Origin: Pachysolen tannophilus NRRL Y-2460
Taxonomy: Eukaryota
DNA: 64,000 bases
Direction: 5' to 3'
NCBI GenBank assembly: GCA_001661245.1
Contig: KV454016.1
Span: 227,868-291,867 of the forward strand
Of this stretch, positions 2-23,990 are shown one piece after another; position 1 is the stretch's first letter, and each line of letters opens with the position of its first letter. The position numbers were made by a program, and so were the translations under genes. The notes below the pieces were generated by a model that was not told the origin of the DNA, ran no database searches, and worked only from the letters and a program-made list of their open reading frames with translations.

Positions 2-706
2 CATGGCTTAACACAATTATATAATGCTTTAATGATTAGCGATAAGCACAAGAAGCGCAAGGTTGAAACTCCAATTCCCCCTCAAATACCGCCTGCTGCT
101 GCGACTCCTTCTGCACTCATAGCGGAAGCTCAAGCCCAAAATAAACAACAACAACAACAACAACAACTACAACAACAACAGCAACAGCAGCAGCTGCAAT
201 TACAACAAGCTCATGGCCACCACCATCATCATAAAATGTCCCAATCTGGTTCACAACAACAACAACAACAACAACTATCGCAGCAACTGTCACCGCAACT
301 GTCACAACAACAGCAGAAGAGAAAATTTTCAGTCAGTTCGTTATTGCCTCCTGAAAAGCAACATAAGAAAAATTCAAATTCACAAATTGCAAATTTATTA
401 GCAAAAAAATTGACACCAGAAGAACAAATGTTATATGGCATAAGCTATCACTCAGAAAAATTGACTCCCGGTGTTTCATTAAGGTCAGCAAAGATTACTT
501 CGTTTAGGCCAGCTGTTCAAACAAGAATTAATAGTGTCTTGAATGAATTGGGTATTGCACCAAAACCAACAATACCAACTGCTAAGGTTTGTGAAAAGTT
601 TGAAATTTTATTACACACCATTAATTTATTATTAGATGCAAAGAGGCAAACTGATAAATTGGAAACAGAAATAAAAATAATTGCGTCACAAAGGCAAAAG
701 CAATAA
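2..706 (+). CDS. SWC4: SWR1/NuA4 subunit Swc4 (DMAP1 family), C-terminal part; 5' end lies outside the window
   Basis: The frame is open from base 2. The C-terminus (YGISYHSEKLTPGVSLRS...VLNELG...PTIPT.KVC.KF...DKLETEI) resembles Swc4/Eaf2 and follows polyQ/His tracts. Confidence 0.8.
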   Translation, partial: HGLTQLYNALMISDKHKKRKVETPIPPQIPPAAATPSALIAEAQAQNKQQQQQQQLQQQQQQQQLQLQQAHGHHHHHKMSQSGSQQQQQQQLSQQLSPQLSQQQQKRKFSVSSLLPPEKQHKKNSNSQIANLLAKKLTPEEQMLYGISYHSEKLTPGVSLRSAKITSFRPAVQTRINSVLNELGIAPKPTIPTAKVCEKFEILLHTINLLLDAKRQTDKLETEIKIIASQRQKQ

Positions 707-14110: not shown

Positions 14111-15247
14111 ATGTCAATAACAAAGCCAAAAGTTTTATTTCTTGGTGATTTAAATGAAGATTTGATTGAGTATAAAGAATTTAAACAAAAATTTGATTGT
14201 ATTGTAAGTAATAATAATTAATTTTTAGTTAAGTTATTATATTAATTAAATAAACTAACTTTTCATTAGTTCACAACTTTGACTACTCGTGAACAACTTG
14301 TTAAAGATTTTCAAACAAAATATTCAAATATTCAAGCAATTTATGGTTCTTGGTTAGGTTTCCATTTAATTGGTGGGTTTAATAAAGAATTAATTGAAAA
14401 TGCTCCATTAAATTTAAAAATAATTACTGTTTGTTCTGTTGGTTATGATGGTTATGATATTGAATCAATGACAAATAAAGGTATTATCTTAACAAATACT
14501 CCTTCAATTGGTGCTGATCATGTAGCTGATACTGTATTATATTTTACATTATCAAGTTTTAGATTTTTCCAAAATTTTCAAAATGAATTAAAATTTACTA
14601 AAAATACAATTAAATCAAGAATTAAATTACAACAAAATAATCATTTAAATGAAAATAATTATGCTTTTGGTCATATTATTAATAAAAATTTTAAAATAAA
14701 TTCACCAAAAGATAAAAATGTTATAATTGTTGGTTTTGGTAATATTGGAATTAAAATTGCTAAAAGATTATTTAGTATTGGAATGAAAATTAATTATGTG
14801 AAAAGAAATAAACTTTCAAAATTACAAGAATTAAATTTAGGATTCCCAGTTAATTTTTTCCCTAATTTAAAAGAAGCAGCTCCAATTGCAGATTTAATAA
14901 TTTTAGCATTACCTGGTTCACCAGAAACAAGACATATGCTTAATAAAAATATAATAGATTTATTACCAACTAATAGTAGAATAATTAATGTTGGAAGAGG
15001 ATCAATTATTAATGAAAAAGATCTTATAGAAGCTTTAGAAAATGGGAAAATTTCATTTGCAGGATTAGACGTTTTCGAAAATGAACCACAAGTTCCTCAA
15101 CTGTTATTAAATAAAGAAAATGTAATATGTACTCCACATATTGCAGGTTCAACTGTAGAAAATTTTGATGAATCCGCTATTTATTGTTTAAAAAATATTG
15201 AAAATGTATTATTACAAGGTAAAAATCCTTCTTCTAAAGTTAATTAA
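14111..15247 (+). CDS. D-isomer 2-hydroxyacid dehydrogenase (glyoxylate reductase/YGL185C-like), paralogue 1; exons 14111-14203 and 14270-15247
   Basis: Motifs SVGYDGYD, GFGNIG, NVGRG, GLDVFENEP and TPHIAGST. The 66-nt intron (GTAAGT, AACTAAC, TAG) keeps frame and adds the N-terminal MSITKPKVLFLG. Confidence 0.9.
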
Positions 15248-15644
15248 TTAATTGAATATATTTTTTTATACTATATTATATATAATTAGTTAGTTAGTTT
15301 AATAATTGATTTATCAATTACTTTTATCATCATGTTATTTTTTAATTTGGTGATGATAATAAACTGGTTTAAACCAAGAAACCAATTCAAGAAGAAATCA
15401 TAAATGGATCTCTCAATTTCTCAAGCTTTTCAAGATTTGATAAATTTGATAAATTTGATAAATTTTTCAACTCAGCTTCTATAGATGAACTTGATCAATA
15501 TGTATTAAACCTCAAGTGGTGTAAATAATGTGAAAAGGATATAAAACGTTTTTTTTTATTTTTATTTTTTAATTTTTTTATTTATTTATTATATAAGTTA
15601 TAAAACCTTTTTTTTTTTCCCTTTTAAATGAGAAGAATGTTTGA

Positions 15645-17183
15645 ATGCTTCTCCAAGCAAAGATAATGCTGAGATTAAAAGTAAGAGGAACTAAGAAACC
15701 AATTAAATTTTTCAATTCATTTTTTGTGTTATCATGGAAAAAATTAAGACAAATTATTCTTGCTATTTGTTTATTATTAATGATAAGGTATCTTTATTCA
15801 TCAAGAGATGATAGTTTAAAACCTTTAACATTACCTAATTTTGAATCAAAGACATCAGTCATATATGATAAGAGTTCAATAAAATATATACCGCAAGAAG
15901 TTATTGAACATCTTTATAATGAAGTAATTGAGAATTCACTGGGTTTGAATTGGTCAAAGTATGCATATGTTCAATATGCTACATCAATAGATTACATGTG
16001 CAGTGCTTTAATAAATTTTGCTAAATTAAGAAGATTTAATACAAGAGCACAATTAGTATTATTATACAATGAATATTATAAATATGATAAAAAATTAGAA
16101 ACTCAAAAATCAAGAGAAGCTCAATTATTAGATAAATTTGCTAAAATATATAATGTTATACTTCGGCCTATAAGATTATTAAAATTTAAAAGTGAATCAA
16201 GTACTTGGGATACAAGTTTTACAAAATTTCAAATTTTTAAATTATTAGAATTTGATCGTATAATTTATTTTGATAGTGATTCTAAAATTGTTAATGGAAA
16301 TATGGATGAATTATTTTTTTTACCAGATGTTAAAGTTGCAATGCCAATATCTTATCATTTGGCTAGTCATTTTTATAATGAAAAAAATTTAGATGTACCT
16401 CAAAATTTTAAAGTCTTATCAAGAGAAGCAAAGGAAAATTTTAATAGAGACATTTATACTTCATTGAATGATAAAAAAAACAGTGGTCAATTTTCTATTT
16501 ATGATTATTCGCTGTTAATATATAATAATTTACCAAATATTTCAGAACATCAAGGTTTTATATGGTCAGATCATATAATGGTAATAAAACCTTCTGTGGA
16601 AATTTATAAAAGATTAATGAGATTAACAAAGGCAAAATCTAAAGATGAATATGATATGGATATTATTAATAAACTTTTCCAAATTGATAACATATTATCT
16701 AGGGATCATAATAAAGACTATATTCCTGATGCATTAGTGATTCCACACTTAAATTATGGTGTGTTAACAGGAGATTTAAGATCTGAAAATCATGATGTAC
16801 TTCTTGCAGAACCACAAGATTTACCCTATGTATCATCCTCAATTTTTCAAAAACGTATTTATGAAGACCCAGATTCGACTCCATATTTTGCTACAGATTT
16901 AAATTGGTCAGCATATGATTTTATGCTGAAAGTAAGATATATTCATTTTTCAGATCATCCAGTTCCAAAACCATGGAGAAAACAGTATTTAGAAGATAAA
17001 GTATATATAAAAGAAAAAATTTTATGTGCAGATGATACAAAGAGACTTAGCATCTATGAACATCTTCCAGATGATGCAAAACCTAGAATTGTTACAGATT
17101 GTGATAGCGCTGAAATTTGGAATAGTCTATATGAAGAATATGAAGAAGATAGATATGATATATGTGGATTGGAACTAAGATAA
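15645..17183 (+). CDS. GNT1: Glycosyltransferase family 8, Gnt1-like N-acetylglucosaminyltransferase (type II membrane protein)
   Basis: N-terminal transmembrane anchor; motifs YAYVQYAT...C.A.INF, SFTKFQIF...FDRIIYFDSDS (DxD), EYDMDIIN and YIHFSDHPVPKPW. Confidence 0.8.
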   Translation: MLLQAKIMLRLKVRGTKKPIKFFNSFFVLSWKKLRQIILAICLLLMIRYLYSSRDDSLKPLTLPNFESKTSVIYDKSSIKYIPQEVIEHLYNEVIENSLGLNWSKYAYVQYATSIDYMCSALINFAKLRRFNTRAQLVLLYNEYYKYDKKLETQKSREAQLLDKFAKIYNVILRPIRLLKFKSESSTWDTSFTKFQIFKLLEFDRIIYFDSDSKIVNGNMDELFFLPDVKVAMPISYHLASHFYNEKNLDVPQNFKVLSREAKENFNRDIYTSLNDKKNSGQFSIYDYSLLIYNNLPNISEHQGFIWSDHIMVIKPSVEIYKRLMRLTKAKSKDEYDMDIINKLFQIDNILSRDHNKDYIPDALVIPHLNYGVLTGDLRSENHDVLLAEPQDLPYVSSSIFQKRIYEDPDSTPYFATDLNWSAYDFMLKVRYIHFSDHPVPKPWRKQYLEDKVYIKEKILCADDTKRLSIYEHLPDDAKPRIVTDCDSAEIWNSLYEEYEEDRYDICGLELR

Positions 17184-17337
17184 ATAAAAAAATTTATTAA
17201 TAAAAAAATTATTGTCTTTCATCCATACATCCACCCACACACACACACATACATACATATATATATAAATAAATAAACAAACAAACAAACAAACATAAAA
17301 TCAGATAGAATCAATTTACTAAACTTAGATTATTTGG

Positions 17338-18444
17338 TTAGTTAACGGCTGTTAATCCATTACCACCTTCGAGTAAGACGTTGATAATGTTATCCTGACA
17401 GTTTTTGGCACTAAGCATTTCATTATCAATGGTTGAAGAACCACTATGTGGAGTAACACTAACGTCCAACCTTTTCAATAAGTTTTCACTAACTCTTGGT
17501 TCATCTTCAAAGACATCCAAACCTGCGAATGAAACCTGACCACTTTTCAATGCTTCTATTAAGTCATTTTCATTTATACATTTACCTCTTCCAACATTAA
17601 CAATTTTAATTCCTTTTTTGCATTTATAAATTGTTTCTTTATTCAAAAGATAATGAGTATCTGGGGCCAAGGGAACACAAAAGATTAAAATGTCAACAAT
17701 TGGTAGTAACTCTTCAAAAGTTGCATGATATACTAAAGATGTAACTCCTATGGAGTTAAACTCTTCATCTGTTAATTTATTTCTCTTGCAATAATGTACT
17801 TGCATTCCAATAACATTCAATCTCTTGGCCAATTCTTGACCAATTCCTCCCAATCCCACAATACCAGCAATTCTTCCTTTAGGTGATCTTACATCTCTAC
17901 CACCAATTCTTGAACCTAAACTGAAAGGAATATTAAAATCTTGTTCTATTGGGCACCCAGTCTCAGGATCAAAAATTTCAGATGTCAAATTAATCTTTGT
18001 TTCAAGTGTATTTTTAAATTTTCTAAGTGAACTATCTAATGCACTGTAGAACCTAAAAGCATTCAAAACATGATATAATGCTGTATCTGCTACTTGGCCA
18101 GAAGCTAAAGCAGGAGTATTTGTAAGTATTATAGATCTTTTCTTTAACTCGGATAAATCATGTCTATCCACACCAATTGAAGGTAAAGCAATAATTTTTA
18201 AAGATTTCGGAAAATAATCCAAAGTATCTGAGTTTAAAGGAAACGAACCATCATATCTAGACATCAATCCACCATGACCAACCCAAATAGCACTAATATC
18301 ATGAAATTCTTTTTGCAAAGCATCAATAAAAGACTCTTTCTTCAAATACAAATAAGTCACAACTTCAAACTTTTCACAAAATTCTTTAAAATTATCCGAT
18401 TCACTAAAGACTTTACCTATAATCAAAACTTTTGGTTTAGACAT
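17338..18444 (-). CDS. D-isomer 2-hydroxyacid dehydrogenase, paralogue 2
   Basis: Motifs SPKGRIAGIVGLGGIG, NVGRG, GLDVFEDEP and TPHSGSST. Confidence 0.92.
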   Translation of the reverse strand: MSKPKVLIIGKVFSESDNFKEFCEKFEVVTYLYLKKESFIDALQKEFHDISAIWVGHGGLMSRYDGSFPLNSDTLDYFPKSLKIIALPSIGVDRHDLSELKKRSIILTNTPALASGQVADTALYHVLNAFRFYSALDSSLRKFKNTLETKINLTSEIFDPETGCPIEQDFNIPFSLGSRIGGRDVRSPKGRIAGIVGLGGIGQELAKRLNVIGMQVHYCKRNKLTDEEFNSIGVTSLVYHATFEELLPIVDILIFCVPLAPDTHYLLNKETIYKCKKGIKIVNVGRGKCINENDLIEALKSGQVSFAGLDVFEDEPRVSENLLKRLDVSVTPHSGSSTIDNEMLSAKNCQDNIINVLLEGGNGLTAVN

Positions 18445-19222
18445 TCTTCCGCTATAAACCTTTTTTTTATTTTTATTTTTTTTTTAACCAAAAACCAGTT
18501 AATTCTTATCATTTAGCTGAACAACAAATAAATATATCATTTCGTATCGCTATCGGTCTCTGTTACTCTCTCTTTCACCTGTCTACTTTTCGGAATAGAG
18601 TTCTGCACTTTTCCATCAGCAATTTTCCTTCAATAACCGGGCGGCAATTTCCAGTTCTCAGCCCCTCCAGGAGAACGGATTACCTGGGCGGCTACCTGAA
18701 CGGCTCTCCTGGGCTTCCCGGGCTGGCTTCTTTCCTGCCCTGCTCCATACCTGCCTGCTTGGCAAGGATGTCTGCCTGGAAGATATGGCCGCGGAGCGGC
18801 CGCAACACAGCTGCTTCGGGTGAGTCTCTATTTGGGGGAACAGTTTTATGGGGGAAAGCTTTATGGGGAGCAGCGTTACGAGACGGCATGGAGCGGCAGA
18901 TTCACGTTCAGTTTTCAACAGGTTCAACAGGTTCAACAGATTCAGGCTCAGGCTAAACGGGGCAAAAATGTCTGCAAAACGTTTAGCTACTGCCGAAAAA
19001 GAGATCGTCTTCCCAACGTGTATGTATGTACGGCAAATGGAGGAAATTGCGTTTTTAGCCGTTCGGAAATTGTTGATTCACATAGCGATAACGAAGAAAA
19101 GTAGTAGTAGCAGCAGCAGCAGCATAATTGAATATATATATATATATATATGGGTCCATGGTACCATCATTTATTTTGATTTAGTTGAAATTTGCAAATT
19201 TTTCATTATAGTAAGAAAGAAG

Positions 19223-20323
19223 ATGACAAAATTTAAAGTATTAATTACTGGTGATAACGCTGAAGTTGCAGAACATACTGAAAAATTCAAAAAATTTGAA
19301 GAATCTTTTGAAGTTGTTAGAGATCATGTTGAATCGAAGGAAGAATTTATTGAAAACTTGCAAACGTTACATTCTGATGTAGCTGCTATTTGGATGGCGG
19401 ATTCAAAGTTGTATCAATATGGTGGACCAAATGCTTTTATTGATTATTTCCCACCTTCGGTAAAATTGTTTTGTTTCCCATGGGTTGGTTATGATTCAAT
19501 AGATGGTCCAAAATTAAGATCAAAAGGTATTTCTTTATGTAATGTTGGTTCTGCCTCTGCTTCTCATGTTGCTGATATTGCATTATATTTAACCTTGTCG
19601 GCTTTTAGATTCACATCTTTTTTTGAACATTCTTTAAGAACTCATGGTGAATTTGGACCTTCTCGTGTTGTATTAGGAAGTGAAGAATTTCACCCAGAAA
19701 CTGGGTTACCAGTTATTCCAAAGAAAAAAGTTAATTTAACTCGTGGTGTTAGATTAGGTGGTAAAGTTATAGAATCTCCTGGAGGGAAAACTGCTGGAAT
19801 TGTGGGCTTAGGGTCCATAGGTAAAGAAATAGCTAAAAGATTACAAGCTTTAGGTATGAATGTATTGTATAATAAGAGAACTCCTTTAATTTTAAAAGAA
19901 AAAGAAGAAGAATTTTATCGTCCATTAAAATATTATCAAAAATTTGATGAAATGATTCCAAATTGTGATTTAATTGTCTTTGCAGTTCCTGGTTCCCCAG
20001 AAACTAAACATTTAATTAATAAAGATTCGATTTTAAAAGTTAAAAAAGGTGTGAGAATAGTGAATATTGGTAGAGGTTCTGCAATTGATGAAGAAGTATT
20101 ATTCAAAGCTTTGGATGATGGAACTATTACTAGTGTAGGACTAGATGTTTTCCAAAATGAACCAAAAATTGATAAAAGATTTTTAAACCGTTGGGATGTT
20201 ACCATAACACCTCATATGGGATCCACAACTACTGATAATTTAATCGATGCTAATAATGCATGCATTGATAATATCAACGATGTCTTACTAAATAATGGAC
20301 CAGGCATCAGCTTGGTTAATTAG
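19223..20323 (+). CDS. D-isomer 2-hydroxyacid dehydrogenase, paralogue 3
   Basis: The start MTKFKVLITG aligns with the paralogue N-termini; motifs GLGSIG, NIGRG, GLDVFQNEP and TPHMGST. Confidence 0.92.
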   Translation: MTKFKVLITGDNAEVAEHTEKFKKFEESFEVVRDHVESKEEFIENLQTLHSDVAAIWMADSKLYQYGGPNAFIDYFPPSVKLFCFPWVGYDSIDGPKLRSKGISLCNVGSASASHVADIALYLTLSAFRFTSFFEHSLRTHGEFGPSRVVLGSEEFHPETGLPVIPKKKVNLTRGVRLGGKVIESPGGKTAGIVGLGSIGKEIAKRLQALGMNVLYNKRTPLILKEKEEEFYRPLKYYQKFDEMIPNCDLIVFAVPGSPETKHLINKDSILKVKKGVRIVNIGRGSAIDEEVLFKALDDGTITSVGLDVFQNEPKIDKRFLNRWDVTITPHMGSTTTDNLIDANNACIDNINDVLLNNGPGISLVN

Positions 20324-21455: not shown

Positions 21456-22055
21456 TCAATTATCAAACTTGGTAATGGCCCAAATAGCACCATTTCTAGC
21501 CAAAGTATTTGATTTGTTACTAGCAAAATTTCTAGACTCTATTGAAATTTTGTTAAAATATAATTTACGCCAACCTCTTTTTTCATAAACAGCATTTATT
21601 ACATTTAATTTTGTCAAGATGGATCTAATTAATCTTTGATTAAGAACTGGATTACCTTTGGCATTGATGTAACCATTAATTTCCCATTGTTTATACCATC
21701 TTGTTAAACAACCTATAACATAAGATGATTCTGTATTTATTGCATATTTTTTATTAGAACTATATTTCCCGTATAGATCATCAATTATATTTTCTAAAGC
21801 TTTTGAAACTGCTAACAACTCTGCTCGTTGAATAGTAATACGTTGATGATATGGATTCATAAAATAATATCTTGATCTAGGATCTAAATTTCTTTCTGCA
21901 TATAATATAGAATAACCACCAAATACCTTTAAGTCTTGGTTCATATTAGCATGAGCCATTTTCTCCAAAGTGGCTCCATTTACGTAAATGTTGATTTTTT
22001 GATATGAAAATTTTTTGTTGTTGGTACCATCATTAATAGAGTCAATGACTAGCAT
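21456..22055 (-). CDS. RNase H1-like domain protein with a degenerate active site
   Basis: RNase H1-type motifs IYVNG, TIQRAELLAV..AL, INTESSYVI..LTRWY.QW..NGY..AKG.PV.N..LI and NTLARNGA. Confidence 0.8.
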   Translation of the reverse strand: MLVIDSINDGTNNKKFSYQKINIYVNGATLEKMAHANMNQDLKVFGGYSILYAERNLDPRSRYYFMNPYHQRITIQRAELLAVSKALENIIDDLYGKYSSNKKYAINTESSYVIGCLTRWYKQWEINGYINAKGNPVLNQRLIRSILTKLNVINAVYEKRGWRKLYFNKISIESRNFASNKSNTLARNGAIWAITKFDN

Positions 22056-22788
22056 TTTACCCTTTCAAAATTATAGATAAGATAGATAATTATCAAACTT
22101 ATCTTAGATAACTTAACAACTTTTTTTCAAATCAACCCAACAATTAAAAGTTTCCAATTGACAATTATACACATCAATTAATTCACATAAAATCACAATT
22201 TTTATGACTATAACTAAAAAACTCTACAATTTTGATAATATTTGATTATAATAAATCATCTTTGTCTACTAAAGAGATGGTAATCCGTTATCATATTCTT
22301 TTCTTCCCTTCCCTTGTCTTGCCTTTACCTGATTAGGTGTTTTTAGAGCAATTATACACTATGGCTAGATAAGAAGTTGATTTATAAATCAATCAACTAA
22401 CTAACTAACTAACTAATTGTCTTGATATTTCAAACTTGATGGGGTTTTTTCCATCAATTTAATTGAATTAATAGGATATCATCAACTAGTGATAACTACA
22501 AAGTTGATTATACTTGATCTTTTTTGGCTACCGCTCCGCTCAGCTACCCGTTCAGCTACCCGCCTGATTGCACCGCCGGAATTGCACCGCGTTCACCGCT
22601 TGCACTGTTGCTAGCTCCGACTTTTTCAATTTTTTTTTTTTTTTCATTTTTTTGGCGGCGGCCAGATAAAAAAACATATTTTTCGGCGGTGATTTTAAAA
22701 ATGACTCTTATTTTATCTTTCTTTTAATATTAATTCCATCAAGGTATAGATAGGTAGAATTGGAATCATATTATAGAATTTATTGAGA

Positions 22789-23990
22789 ATGTCAGGTGGT
22801 AATGGAAAGAGTTATGCTATGGAGACTGAATTAGTTTTGGCTAATCATAAGGATTCATTTAATTCATCAATTGTACCGCTTTACCAATCTGCTACTTTTA
22901 AGCAACCTTCATTAGATGATATGGGAGAATATGATTATACAAGATCAGGGAATCCTACTAGAACTGTATTACAGACTCATTTGAGTAAAATCATGAAGGC
23001 AGAATATTCATTTGTTGTTACTTCTGGTATGACTGCATTAGATGTTATTTGTAAATTATTAGATGCAGGTGATGAAGTTATTGCAGGTGATGATTTATAT
23101 GGTGGTACTGATAGATTATTAACAAGTTTAAATAAAAAAAAATTTTAAAAGTATCACAATATGATACTACAAATACAAAATTAATTAAATCAAAAATTAC
23201 TAAAGAAACAAAAATGATTTTTTTAGAAAGTCCAACAAATCCTTTAATAAAAGTTGTTGATTTACAAAAAATTACAGATTATGCTCATGAAATTAATCCC
23301 GATTGTTTAGTTGTATTTGATAATACAATGATGTCACCAGTATTGTTGACACCTTTGGATTTAGGTGTTGATATTCATTATGAATCTGCTACAAAATATC
23401 TTAATGGACATCATGATTTAATGGCTGGTGTTATTGCAACAAATTCTAAAAAAATTGCAGATGATATTTATTTTGCCATCAATGCAACTGGTTCCGGATT
23501 ACTGCCATTTGATTCATGGTTATTATCTAGAGGTTTGAAAACTTTATCAATTAGAATATTACAACAACAACAAAATGCAATTAAAATAGCTGAATTTTTA
23601 TCAAAATTAGGTTTAAAAGTTAGGTACCCTGGATTAAAAGAACATCCACAATATGAATTACATAAATCTTATACAAAAGGTCCAGGTGCTGTATTATCTT
23701 TTGAAACAGGATCAATTGAAATTAGTGAAAAAATCGTTAGTAATTGTGATTTATTTGGAATCACCGTTTCATTTGGATGTATCAATTCTTTAATATCAAT
23801 GCCTTGTAGAATGTCTCATGCATCAATTGACCCACTGAAAAGATTAGAAAGAGGTTTCCCAGAAGATTTAATAAGATTATCTATTGGTATTGAAAACCTG
23901 GATGATCTAATCAGTGATTTAACTGATGCTTTGAAAATTGCTGGTGCCATCAAAGAAGTTGACGGTAACTTGATAAACCTTTTAAAATAA
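22789..23990 (+). CDS. STR3: Cystathionine beta-lyase, split by a frameshift at the A9 run 23134-23142
   Basis: The 5' part has PLYQSATFKQ, YDYTRSGNPTR and GDDLYGGT. The 3' part has LESPTNP, DNTMMSP, ESATKYLNGHHD (PLP lysine) and MSHASI. One extra nucleotide would join the frames. Confidence 0.88.

What the first reader, a model, noticed from the sequence alone, without database searches (positions are those of the whole stretch)
21456..22055. Intact but apparently catalytically dead RNase H1 paralogue
The 199-aa ORF keeps RNase H1 structural motifs, including the W..NG...G.PV.N basic protrusion. Three of four DEDD carboxylates are changed: YTDG to YVNG (AAT, 21980-21978), TDS to TES (GAA, 21731-21729) and ADxLA to SNTLA (AAT, 21509-21507). 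The VKGH histidine is lost and only the RAEL glutamate remains. There is no N-terminal hybrid-binding domain. Conservative D>N and D>E swaps in an unbroken frame suggest selection to keep the fold without cleavage, for example an RNA:DNA hybrid binder or regulator. No reverse transcriptase, integrase or LTR is nearby.
Basis: partly seen in the sequence, partly recalled or inferred. Interest (0 to 1): 0.7.

Follow-up and report, generated by a model that had tools for sequence, protein, structure and literature searches.

The report
Catalytically dead RNase H1 duplicate, yeast
This yeast carries, besides its normal RNA-DNA-hybrid-cutting enzyme RNase H1, a second intact copy that has lost the residues needed to cut but kept its shape, so it may bind such hybrids instead of destroying them, though neither expression nor binding has been shown.

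Summary
A 199-aa ORF (22055-21456, minus strand) folds as RNase H1 (pLDDT 91.6; Z 19.3 to human RNase H1). Its active-site positions read N26/E79/E109/E173/N183 instead of D/E/D/H/D, and it has no hybrid-binding domain. A canonical RNH1 lies on another contig; its NCBI record is named Pachysolen tannophilus.

Neutral decay fits badly (simulated joint probability at most 4e-4): the frame is open, 27 of 40 conserved non-catalytic positions are kept, and losses cluster in the active-site loop. Hybrid binding is plausible (DNA-side residues kept, net charge +15) but unshown, and the N151 and N182 equivalents are altered. No orthologue was found, so dN/dS could not be run; no RNA run was listed.

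Five other degenerate RNase H1 domains turned up in three yeasts, probably independent; this scan noted a similar case in another fungus. Verdict: a real RNase H1 pseudonuclease, probably kept by selection, with an inferred role. My searches found no description in print. Interest moderate.

The parts
21456..22055 (-). 199-aa ORF, stand-alone RNase H1 catalytic-domain paralogue (P0001), no hybrid-binding domain
   Evidence: (PF00075 44.2 bits, cut-off 25.8)
21978..21980 (-). N26 in place of the first catalytic Asp (E. coli D10, human D145)
21921..21974 (-). Lengthened loop after strand 1 (residues 28-45); the conserved Asn at Asp+6 (human N151) is K32 by count, or N37 if the insertion shifts it
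21819..21842 (-). R72-I-T74-I-Q-R-A-E79: human R179, T181, Q183 and E186 equivalents kept; N182 equivalent changed to Ile
21729..21731 (-). E109 in place of the third catalytic carboxylate (E. coli D70, human D210)
21639..21704 (-). Basic protrusion (residues 118-139) with W120, W124 and N139 (human W221, W225, N240)
21507..21548 (-). Eroded His loop and start of the last helix (residues 170-183): E173 at the His column, N183 at the last Asp, six further conserved positions changed
21957..21959 (-). Second ATG (M33), where the 167-aa database protein P0002 starts; that start omits strand 1, so the 199-aa reading fits the fold better

Best explanation
It is an old duplicate of the host RNH1 catalytic domain that lost the hybrid-binding domain and the two-metal active site and was kept as a folded, strongly basic protein. 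Shown: fold, state of the site, a canonical RNH1 elsewhere, an intact frame. Inferred from statistics: purifying selection on frame and fold continued during or after loss of catalysis. Inferred from homology only: it grips RNA:DNA hybrids through the DNA-strand side (phosphate pocket R72/T74/N139, Trp channel W120/W124) without cutting, as engineered first-Asp-to-Asn mutants do, and so shields some hybrids or competes with RNH1 and RNase H2 for them. Without the hybrid-binding domain it probably binds weakly or needs a partner.
For: Model pLDDT 91.6, pTM 0.88; best structural matches are human RNase H1-hybrid complexes, Z 19.3, rmsd 2.5 A over 152 residues. Catalytic positions kept 1 of 5, other conserved positions 27 of 40 (Fisher p 0.047-0.074 over three thresholds). 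At less conserved columns it is within the range of active enzymes. Neutral simulation, 21 settings x 20,000 runs: joint probability of no stop, at most 1 catalytic residue kept and at least 27 others kept never exceeds 4e-4, with indels ignored. GC3 0.196 is like the window's genes (0.172 +/- 0.053) and below intergenic DNA, about 0.255. Net charge +15, reached by 0 of 62 reference domains (mean +1, max +12). The R/K-T-N triad is complete here and in 22 of 57 references. E. coli D10N and D70N bind hybrids without cleaving (PMC12203952, passages); human D145N and fission-yeast D129N are used as binders (PMC6027298, passages).
Against: No expression data and no orthologue, so no dN/dS. The residue whose loss most reduced catalytic-domain binding in human RNase H1 (N151A, over 7-fold) is not in register here, while W221A/W225A, which are kept, had little effect in that assay (PMC6846478, passages). 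The hybrid-binding domain, the stronger binder in that study (measured with modified oligonucleotides), is absent. The Fisher test is borderline. The reference set was picked by similarity to this protein and cleared of degenerate rows, which favours the comparisons. The positive charge may partly reflect AT-rich drift (FYMINK 43%, highest of 28 genes compared). The own RNH1 has F-T-H at the triad, so the triad is not needed for this family. End branch 3.9 against 1.05 for RNH1 shows strongly relaxed constraint. The finding was selected for being intact out of many windows, which weakens the simulation's small probability. Tight dead binders are toxic in E. coli.
Confidence: 0.4

Rival explanations
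1. Pseudonuclease kept for a role other than hybrid binding: a protein-interaction scaffold, or a binder of another nucleic acid through its basic surface and lengthened loop.
For: The same selection evidence. RNA-side residues (N151, N182 equivalents, His loop) are eroded; there is a new 6-7 residue loop and 15 extra N-terminal residues with a short predicted strand. In fungal Ssd1 pseudonucleases the conserved function maps away from the old active site (PMC8097288, abstract and section 15).
Against: Helix A and the basic protrusion (residues 72-143) keep 17 of 20 conserved non-catalytic positions (counted), many on the substrate face. No partner is suggested by neighbouring genes.
Confidence: 0.22
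2. A duplicate on its way out: long an active enzyme, then released from selection; the open frame is luck plus ascertainment.
For: Branch about four times longer than RNH1; no orthologue; N and E are common neutral outcomes from Asp; GC1 0.32 against 0.41 +/- 0.055. Extra and degenerate RNase H1 copies in other yeasts look short-lived and lineage-specific.
Against: At the neutral distance that would erode conserved sites to 27 of 40 (about 0.1 changes per base), an open frame has P 0.02-0.05, loss of four catalytic residues P 0.01-0.02, and both together at most 4e-4. Length changes against the references are all in frame.
Confidence: 0.21
3. A weak or altered nuclease: E79, E109 and E173 (perhaps E31) form a rearranged metal site with low activity or a different metal or substrate preference.
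For: Three glutamates remain at site columns. In B. halodurans RNase H a Glu (E188) takes the place of the His and coordinates metal (PMC8900815, passages). That E. coli D134N keeps activity is recalled, not from a call.
Against: The first Asp coordinates both metals (PMC8900815) and its change to Asn alone abolishes cleavage in E. coli, human and fission-yeast enzymes. Here it comes with three more changes and loss of the surrounding loop motif.
Confidence: 0.12
4. A domesticated retroelement or viral RNase H domain.
For: Stand-alone RNase H domain; one HIV/E. coli chimera heads the PDB sequence hits.
Against: The best hits among 1.84 billion representatives are yeast RNH1-type proteins wherever named, and it shares their C-terminal 'IN..Y..RGW' segment. 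The only RVT_1 match in the genome lies in the telomerase frame; no integrase match; no LTR-like repeat nearby; the locus is single-copy.
Confidence: 0.03

Closest known systems
Eukaryotic RNase H1 (yeast RNH1; human RNase H1, PDB 2qkk/2qk9/8swc; own-genome RNH1 P0004)
   Same: Fold with basic protrusion, RAEL helix, Trp pair, yeast-type C-terminal segment; 31% identity to the own RNH1 and up to 37% to other yeast RNH1 domains.
   Different: No hybrid-binding domain; D-E-D-H-D is N-E-E-E-N; longer first loop; far more basic; evolves about four times faster.
Engineered dead RNase H1 probes (E. coli D10N/D70N, human D145N/D210N, S. pombe D129N)
   Same: The first catalytic Asp is Asn; these bind hybrids without cutting.
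   Different: The probes are single mutants with all binding residues intact, the eukaryotic ones normally with their hybrid-binding domain (recalled); this protein is natural, has several changes and lacks that domain.
Fungal pseudonucleases of the Dis3L2/Ssd1 family (PMC8097288)
   Same: Repeated loss of catalytic Asp residues in fungi, sometimes after duplication, with the fold kept.
   Different: Another fold; Ssd1 is widely conserved with a demonstrated RNA-binding role, whereas this gene has no known orthologue or function.
RNase H1 paralogues without the hybrid-binding domain (three in C. elegans, PMC1950709; Ogataea P0014, Ambrosiozyma P0018, Diutina P0013)
   Same: Extra copies beside a canonical RNH1, catalytic domain only.
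   Different: The three yeast examples keep D-E-D-H-D; the site state of the C. elegans copies was not checked.
Degenerate yeast RNase H1 domains found here (Diutina catenulata P0086 and P0006 N-domain, Candida subhashii P0098, Ambrosiozyma monospora P0119 and P0090)
   Same: Catalytic residues lost with the fold motifs kept; P0086 has the same YVNG change; P0090 is 41% identical over 80 aa.
   Different: Unannotated and uncharacterised; one clade of the five tested (this protein and four others, P0090 left out) is weakly rejected (p-AU 0.047); P0119 is sister to an active copy with the adjacent accession.

Membership tests
RNase H1 family (fold) | PF00075 above cut-off | tested here: met
   44.2 bits against 25.8
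RNase H1 family (fold) | RNase H fold with basic protrusion | tested here: met
   Model pLDDT 91.6; Z 19.3, rmsd 2.5, 152 aligned to 2qkk_F. The model was built from an RNase H1 alignment, so it leans to that fold.
Active eukaryotic RNase H1 | DEDD carboxylates | tested here: not met
   N26, E79, E109, N183
Active eukaryotic RNase H1 | Conserved His in the loop before the last helix | tested here: not met
   E173 at that column; H in 62 of 62 chosen references
Active eukaryotic RNase H1 | N-terminal hybrid-binding domain (PF01693) | tested here: not met
   Over cut-off only at the canonical RNH1 on C2; an in-frame stop lies three codons before the ATG
Active eukaryotic RNase H1 | Metal-dependent cleavage of hybrid RNA | not testable with these tools
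   Needs an assay
Pseudonuclease (dead paralogue with a retained role) | Catalytic motif lost while an active paralogue exists | tested here: met
Pseudonuclease (dead paralogue with a retained role) | Purifying selection after loss of catalysis | tested here: inconclusive
   Simulation favours it; Fisher p 0.047-0.074; no orthologue for dN/dS
Pseudonuclease (dead paralogue with a retained role) | Expressed, with a non-catalytic function | not testable with these tools
   No RNA run was available to lay (see Tried and rejected)
Hybrid-binding RNase H1 surface | Substrate-contact residues (human N151, R179, N182/Q183, F213, W221/W225, T232/S233) | tested here: inconclusive
   Kept R72, Q76, W120, W124; similar Y112; changed I75, N131/A132; N151 equivalent out of register
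Retroelement RNase H | Linked RT, integrase or LTR | tested here: not met
   the RVT_2 search had no positive control

The most novel reading that the evidence does not exclude
Budding yeasts repeatedly turn spare RNase H1 catalytic domains into non-cleaving hybrid-binding proteins that protect chosen RNA:DNA hybrids (R-loops, primers, telomeric or mitochondrial hybrids) from RNH1 and RNase H2: a natural, convergently evolved counterpart of the laboratory dead-RNase H1 probe, acting as an endogenous R-loop stabiliser.
Probability: 0.15. Interest if true: 0.8.

Novelty: new variant of a known kind. Interest (0 to 1): 0.45.

Why it matters
RNase H1 is treated as a remover of RNA:DNA hybrids, and dead versions are known mainly as laboratory tools. 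A natural dead paralogue kept by selection would point to cells that protect hybrids with the same fold, and would be a small ready-made binder to test. The recurrence of such copies in four yeasts makes the question testable by comparison. If it is only a decaying duplicate, it is an ordinary case of gene birth and death.

Tried and rejected
Orthologue search: word-index search gave only the protein's own 167-aa record and one 175-aa canonical RNase H, 2 of 52 candidates. The exhaustive search gave 1132 hits, of which the best 150 were listed and none stood out as an orthologue. Metagenome contigs: 123 pattern matches, 0 confirmed. P0090 found only itself among 149 candidates. Expression: no RNA holder listed, which is no evidence either way.

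Meiosis-specific promoter: GGCGGC motifs at 22652-22691 lie about 100-135 bp before the divergent Cys/Met enzyme gene and about 600 bp from this ORF, and occur at four other places in the window; no GNCRCAAAW site is near (motifs recalled). Rejected as unsupported. An intron-linked upstream exon: no TACTAAC between 13239 and 23736 and no PF01693 match here. The sigma-70 scan is irrelevant to a yeast.

Synonymous codon score was uninformative (0.055; 6 of 26 window genes lower; RNH1 itself -0.032). Trees do not place the gene: sisterhood with the own RNH1 is weakly rejected (p-AU 0.036), a clade with RNH1 plus its nearest unnamed relative is not rejected (0.065); the branch is long. The first tree (67 rows) was only a quick search; the second used 32 of those rows plus P0198. 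No complex was predicted, as no partner is indicated. Literature searches for a description of this gene or of natural dead yeast RNase H1 paralogues listed none by title or abstract; the library lacks most subscription papers and no supplements were read.

Full report
Setting. The window is AT-rich yeast DNA. CTG reads as Ala in conserved motifs of the canonical RNH1 (GAKPG, VKAH), and the NCBI record matching that gene is named Pachysolen tannophilus PACTADRAFT_21332. The ORF sits between a PF01257 gene downstream (complex I 24-kDa subunit; name recalled) and a divergent PF01053 gene upstream. The locus is single-copy at DNA level.

Observation. The ORF, its three named codons and the surviving RAEL glutamate are as described. 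It passes the Pfam RNase_H cut-off. A model from an 82-sequence alignment has pLDDT 91.6 and matches human RNase H1 best (Z 19.3; Foldseek E 3e-11). Counting from D210 in the PDB alignment gives R72=R179, T74=T181, I75=N182, E79=E186, E109=D210, W120=W221, W124=W225, N139=N240. The range 19..195 = 138..286 gives N26=D145 and N183=D274 if the ends are ungapped; D274 as the fourth carboxylate, and T181/N240 as pocket residues, are recalled. The His column holds E173. Four contig sets of one sample show no other letters.

Paralogy. The genome has two PF00075 loci: this one and a 330-aa RNH1 with hybrid-binding domain and D-E-D-H-D. RNase H2 is present. The only RVT_1 match shares an 867-aa frame with Telomerase_RBD, and no integrase was found, so a retroelement origin is unlikely. 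The protein is 31% identical to the own RNH1 and up to 37% to other yeast domains. In a 33-row tree its end branch is 3.88 against 1.05, inside a 22-row group (98/99) that holds all named non-Serinales sequences and outside the pair RNH1+P0198 (97/92). AU tests are borderline (0.036 and 0.065). The duplication looks old, but the long branch leaves this open.

Is it dead? Probably. Among 167 RNase H domains in 152 proteins, 125 had all five site columns filled and 104 read D-E-D-H-D. Asp10 coordinates both metals in E. coli RNase HI and H124A loses much activity (PMC8900815, passages). First-Asp-to-Asn mutants bind but do not cut (PMC12203952, PMC6027298, passages). Against this, three glutamates remain, and a Glu replaces the His in B. 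halodurans, so weak activity is not excluded.

Is it under selection? Against 62 reference domains (top hits with intact sites, so a favourable set), it keeps 1 of 5 catalytic and 27 of 40 other conserved positions (p 0.047-0.074). Six of the 13 losses fall in residues 170-182 next to the site. At columns under 80% conservation it lies within the range of active enzymes. Neutral simulation from the RNH1 codons under three mutation settings and seven distances never gave the observed combination more often than 4 in 10,000, without counting frameshifts. That favours selection, tempered by the fact that intact cases are the ones that get noticed. The same simulation shows that N or E is the outcome of 42-57% of Asp changes at short distances, so the 'conservative swap' argument carries little weight. 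dN/dS could not be computed, since no orthologue was found.

What might it do? RNase H1 reads the DNA strand with a phosphate pocket and a channel beside the basic protrusion (PMC8387031, PMC8960830, PMC13310575, passages). That side is well kept, and the domain is more basic than all 62 references. The RNA-side and metal-side residues are eroded. In a binding assay on the human catalytic domain, N151A cost over 7-fold and R179A 2-fold, while the Trp pair mattered little (PMC6846478, passages); here R is kept and N151 is displaced by a loop insertion. A weak, non-cleaving hybrid binder is therefore the best single guess (0.40), ahead of another non-catalytic role (0.22), decay (0.21) and residual activity (0.12).

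Recurrence. Among the 150 listed hits are other degenerate yeast-type domains: Diutina catenulata P0086 (N-E-D-H-E; an intact 233-aa frame in all 8 cluster members) and the N-terminal domain of P0006, Candida subhashii P0098, and Ambrosiozyma monospora P0119 and P0090. Holding five together is weakly rejected (p-AU 0.047), and P0119 groups with an active copy of adjacent accession (98/94). Dead copies thus seem to arise repeatedly. This fits convergent re-use, but equally routine birth and death of duplicates.

Literature. Arabidopsis has several RNase H1 proteins, two shown active (10.1101/662080, passages). C. elegans has three copies without the hybrid-binding domain, and B. subtilis RNase HI was reported inactive (PMC1950709, passages). 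Repeated pseudonuclease evolution in fungi is established for Dis3L2/Ssd1 (PMC8097288, abstract and section 15). Searches (listings only) showed no account of this gene or of natural dead RNase H1 paralogues in yeasts. No supplements were read; gene-family tables there could list it.

Verdict. The feature is real, probably non-catalytic and probably selected; its role is inferred, not shown. It is a new variant of a known kind (a pseudonuclease of the RNase H1 family), not a member of active RNase H1. Interest 0.45.

Noticed in passing
window 22789-23990 (+): The divergent Cys/Met PLP enzyme gene is split into two frames (PF01053 positions 2-114 and 140-381) at an A-run near 23130-23140; probably a homopolymer assembly error, not checked against reads.
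   Followed up: partly
window 14468-20323: Three 2-hydroxyacid dehydrogenase-like ORFs lie close together (14468-15247 +, 17338-18444 -, 18848-20323 +); only the last was scanned (PF02826), and the first looks N-terminally short.
   Followed up: no
window 22540-22691: GC-rich island in the intergenic region with GGCGGC and CGG-rich motifs, likely regulatory sites of the divergent gene; GGCGGC occurs 6 times in the window against 1.1 expected.
   Followed up: partly
L002:1108-2100 (canonical RNH1): Carries an insertion of about 35 residues, rich in His, Asn and Ser, in the basic protrusion; the NCBI model (P0197, 214 aa, partial) omits parts of this single open frame.
   Followed up: partly
proteins P0006, P0023, P0031, P0065, P0074: Tandem RNase H proteins that pair an intact domain with one or more degenerate ones.
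   Followed up: partly
protein P0090 (Ambrosiozyma monospora): Partial degenerate RNase H1 domain followed by a basic stretch and a C-terminal hydrophobic segment that could be a membrane anchor.
   Followed up: partly
whole genome G000: No retrotransposon RT or integrase was found; the only RVT_1 match is telomerase. The RVT_2 search had no positive control, so absence is not shown.
   Followed up: partly
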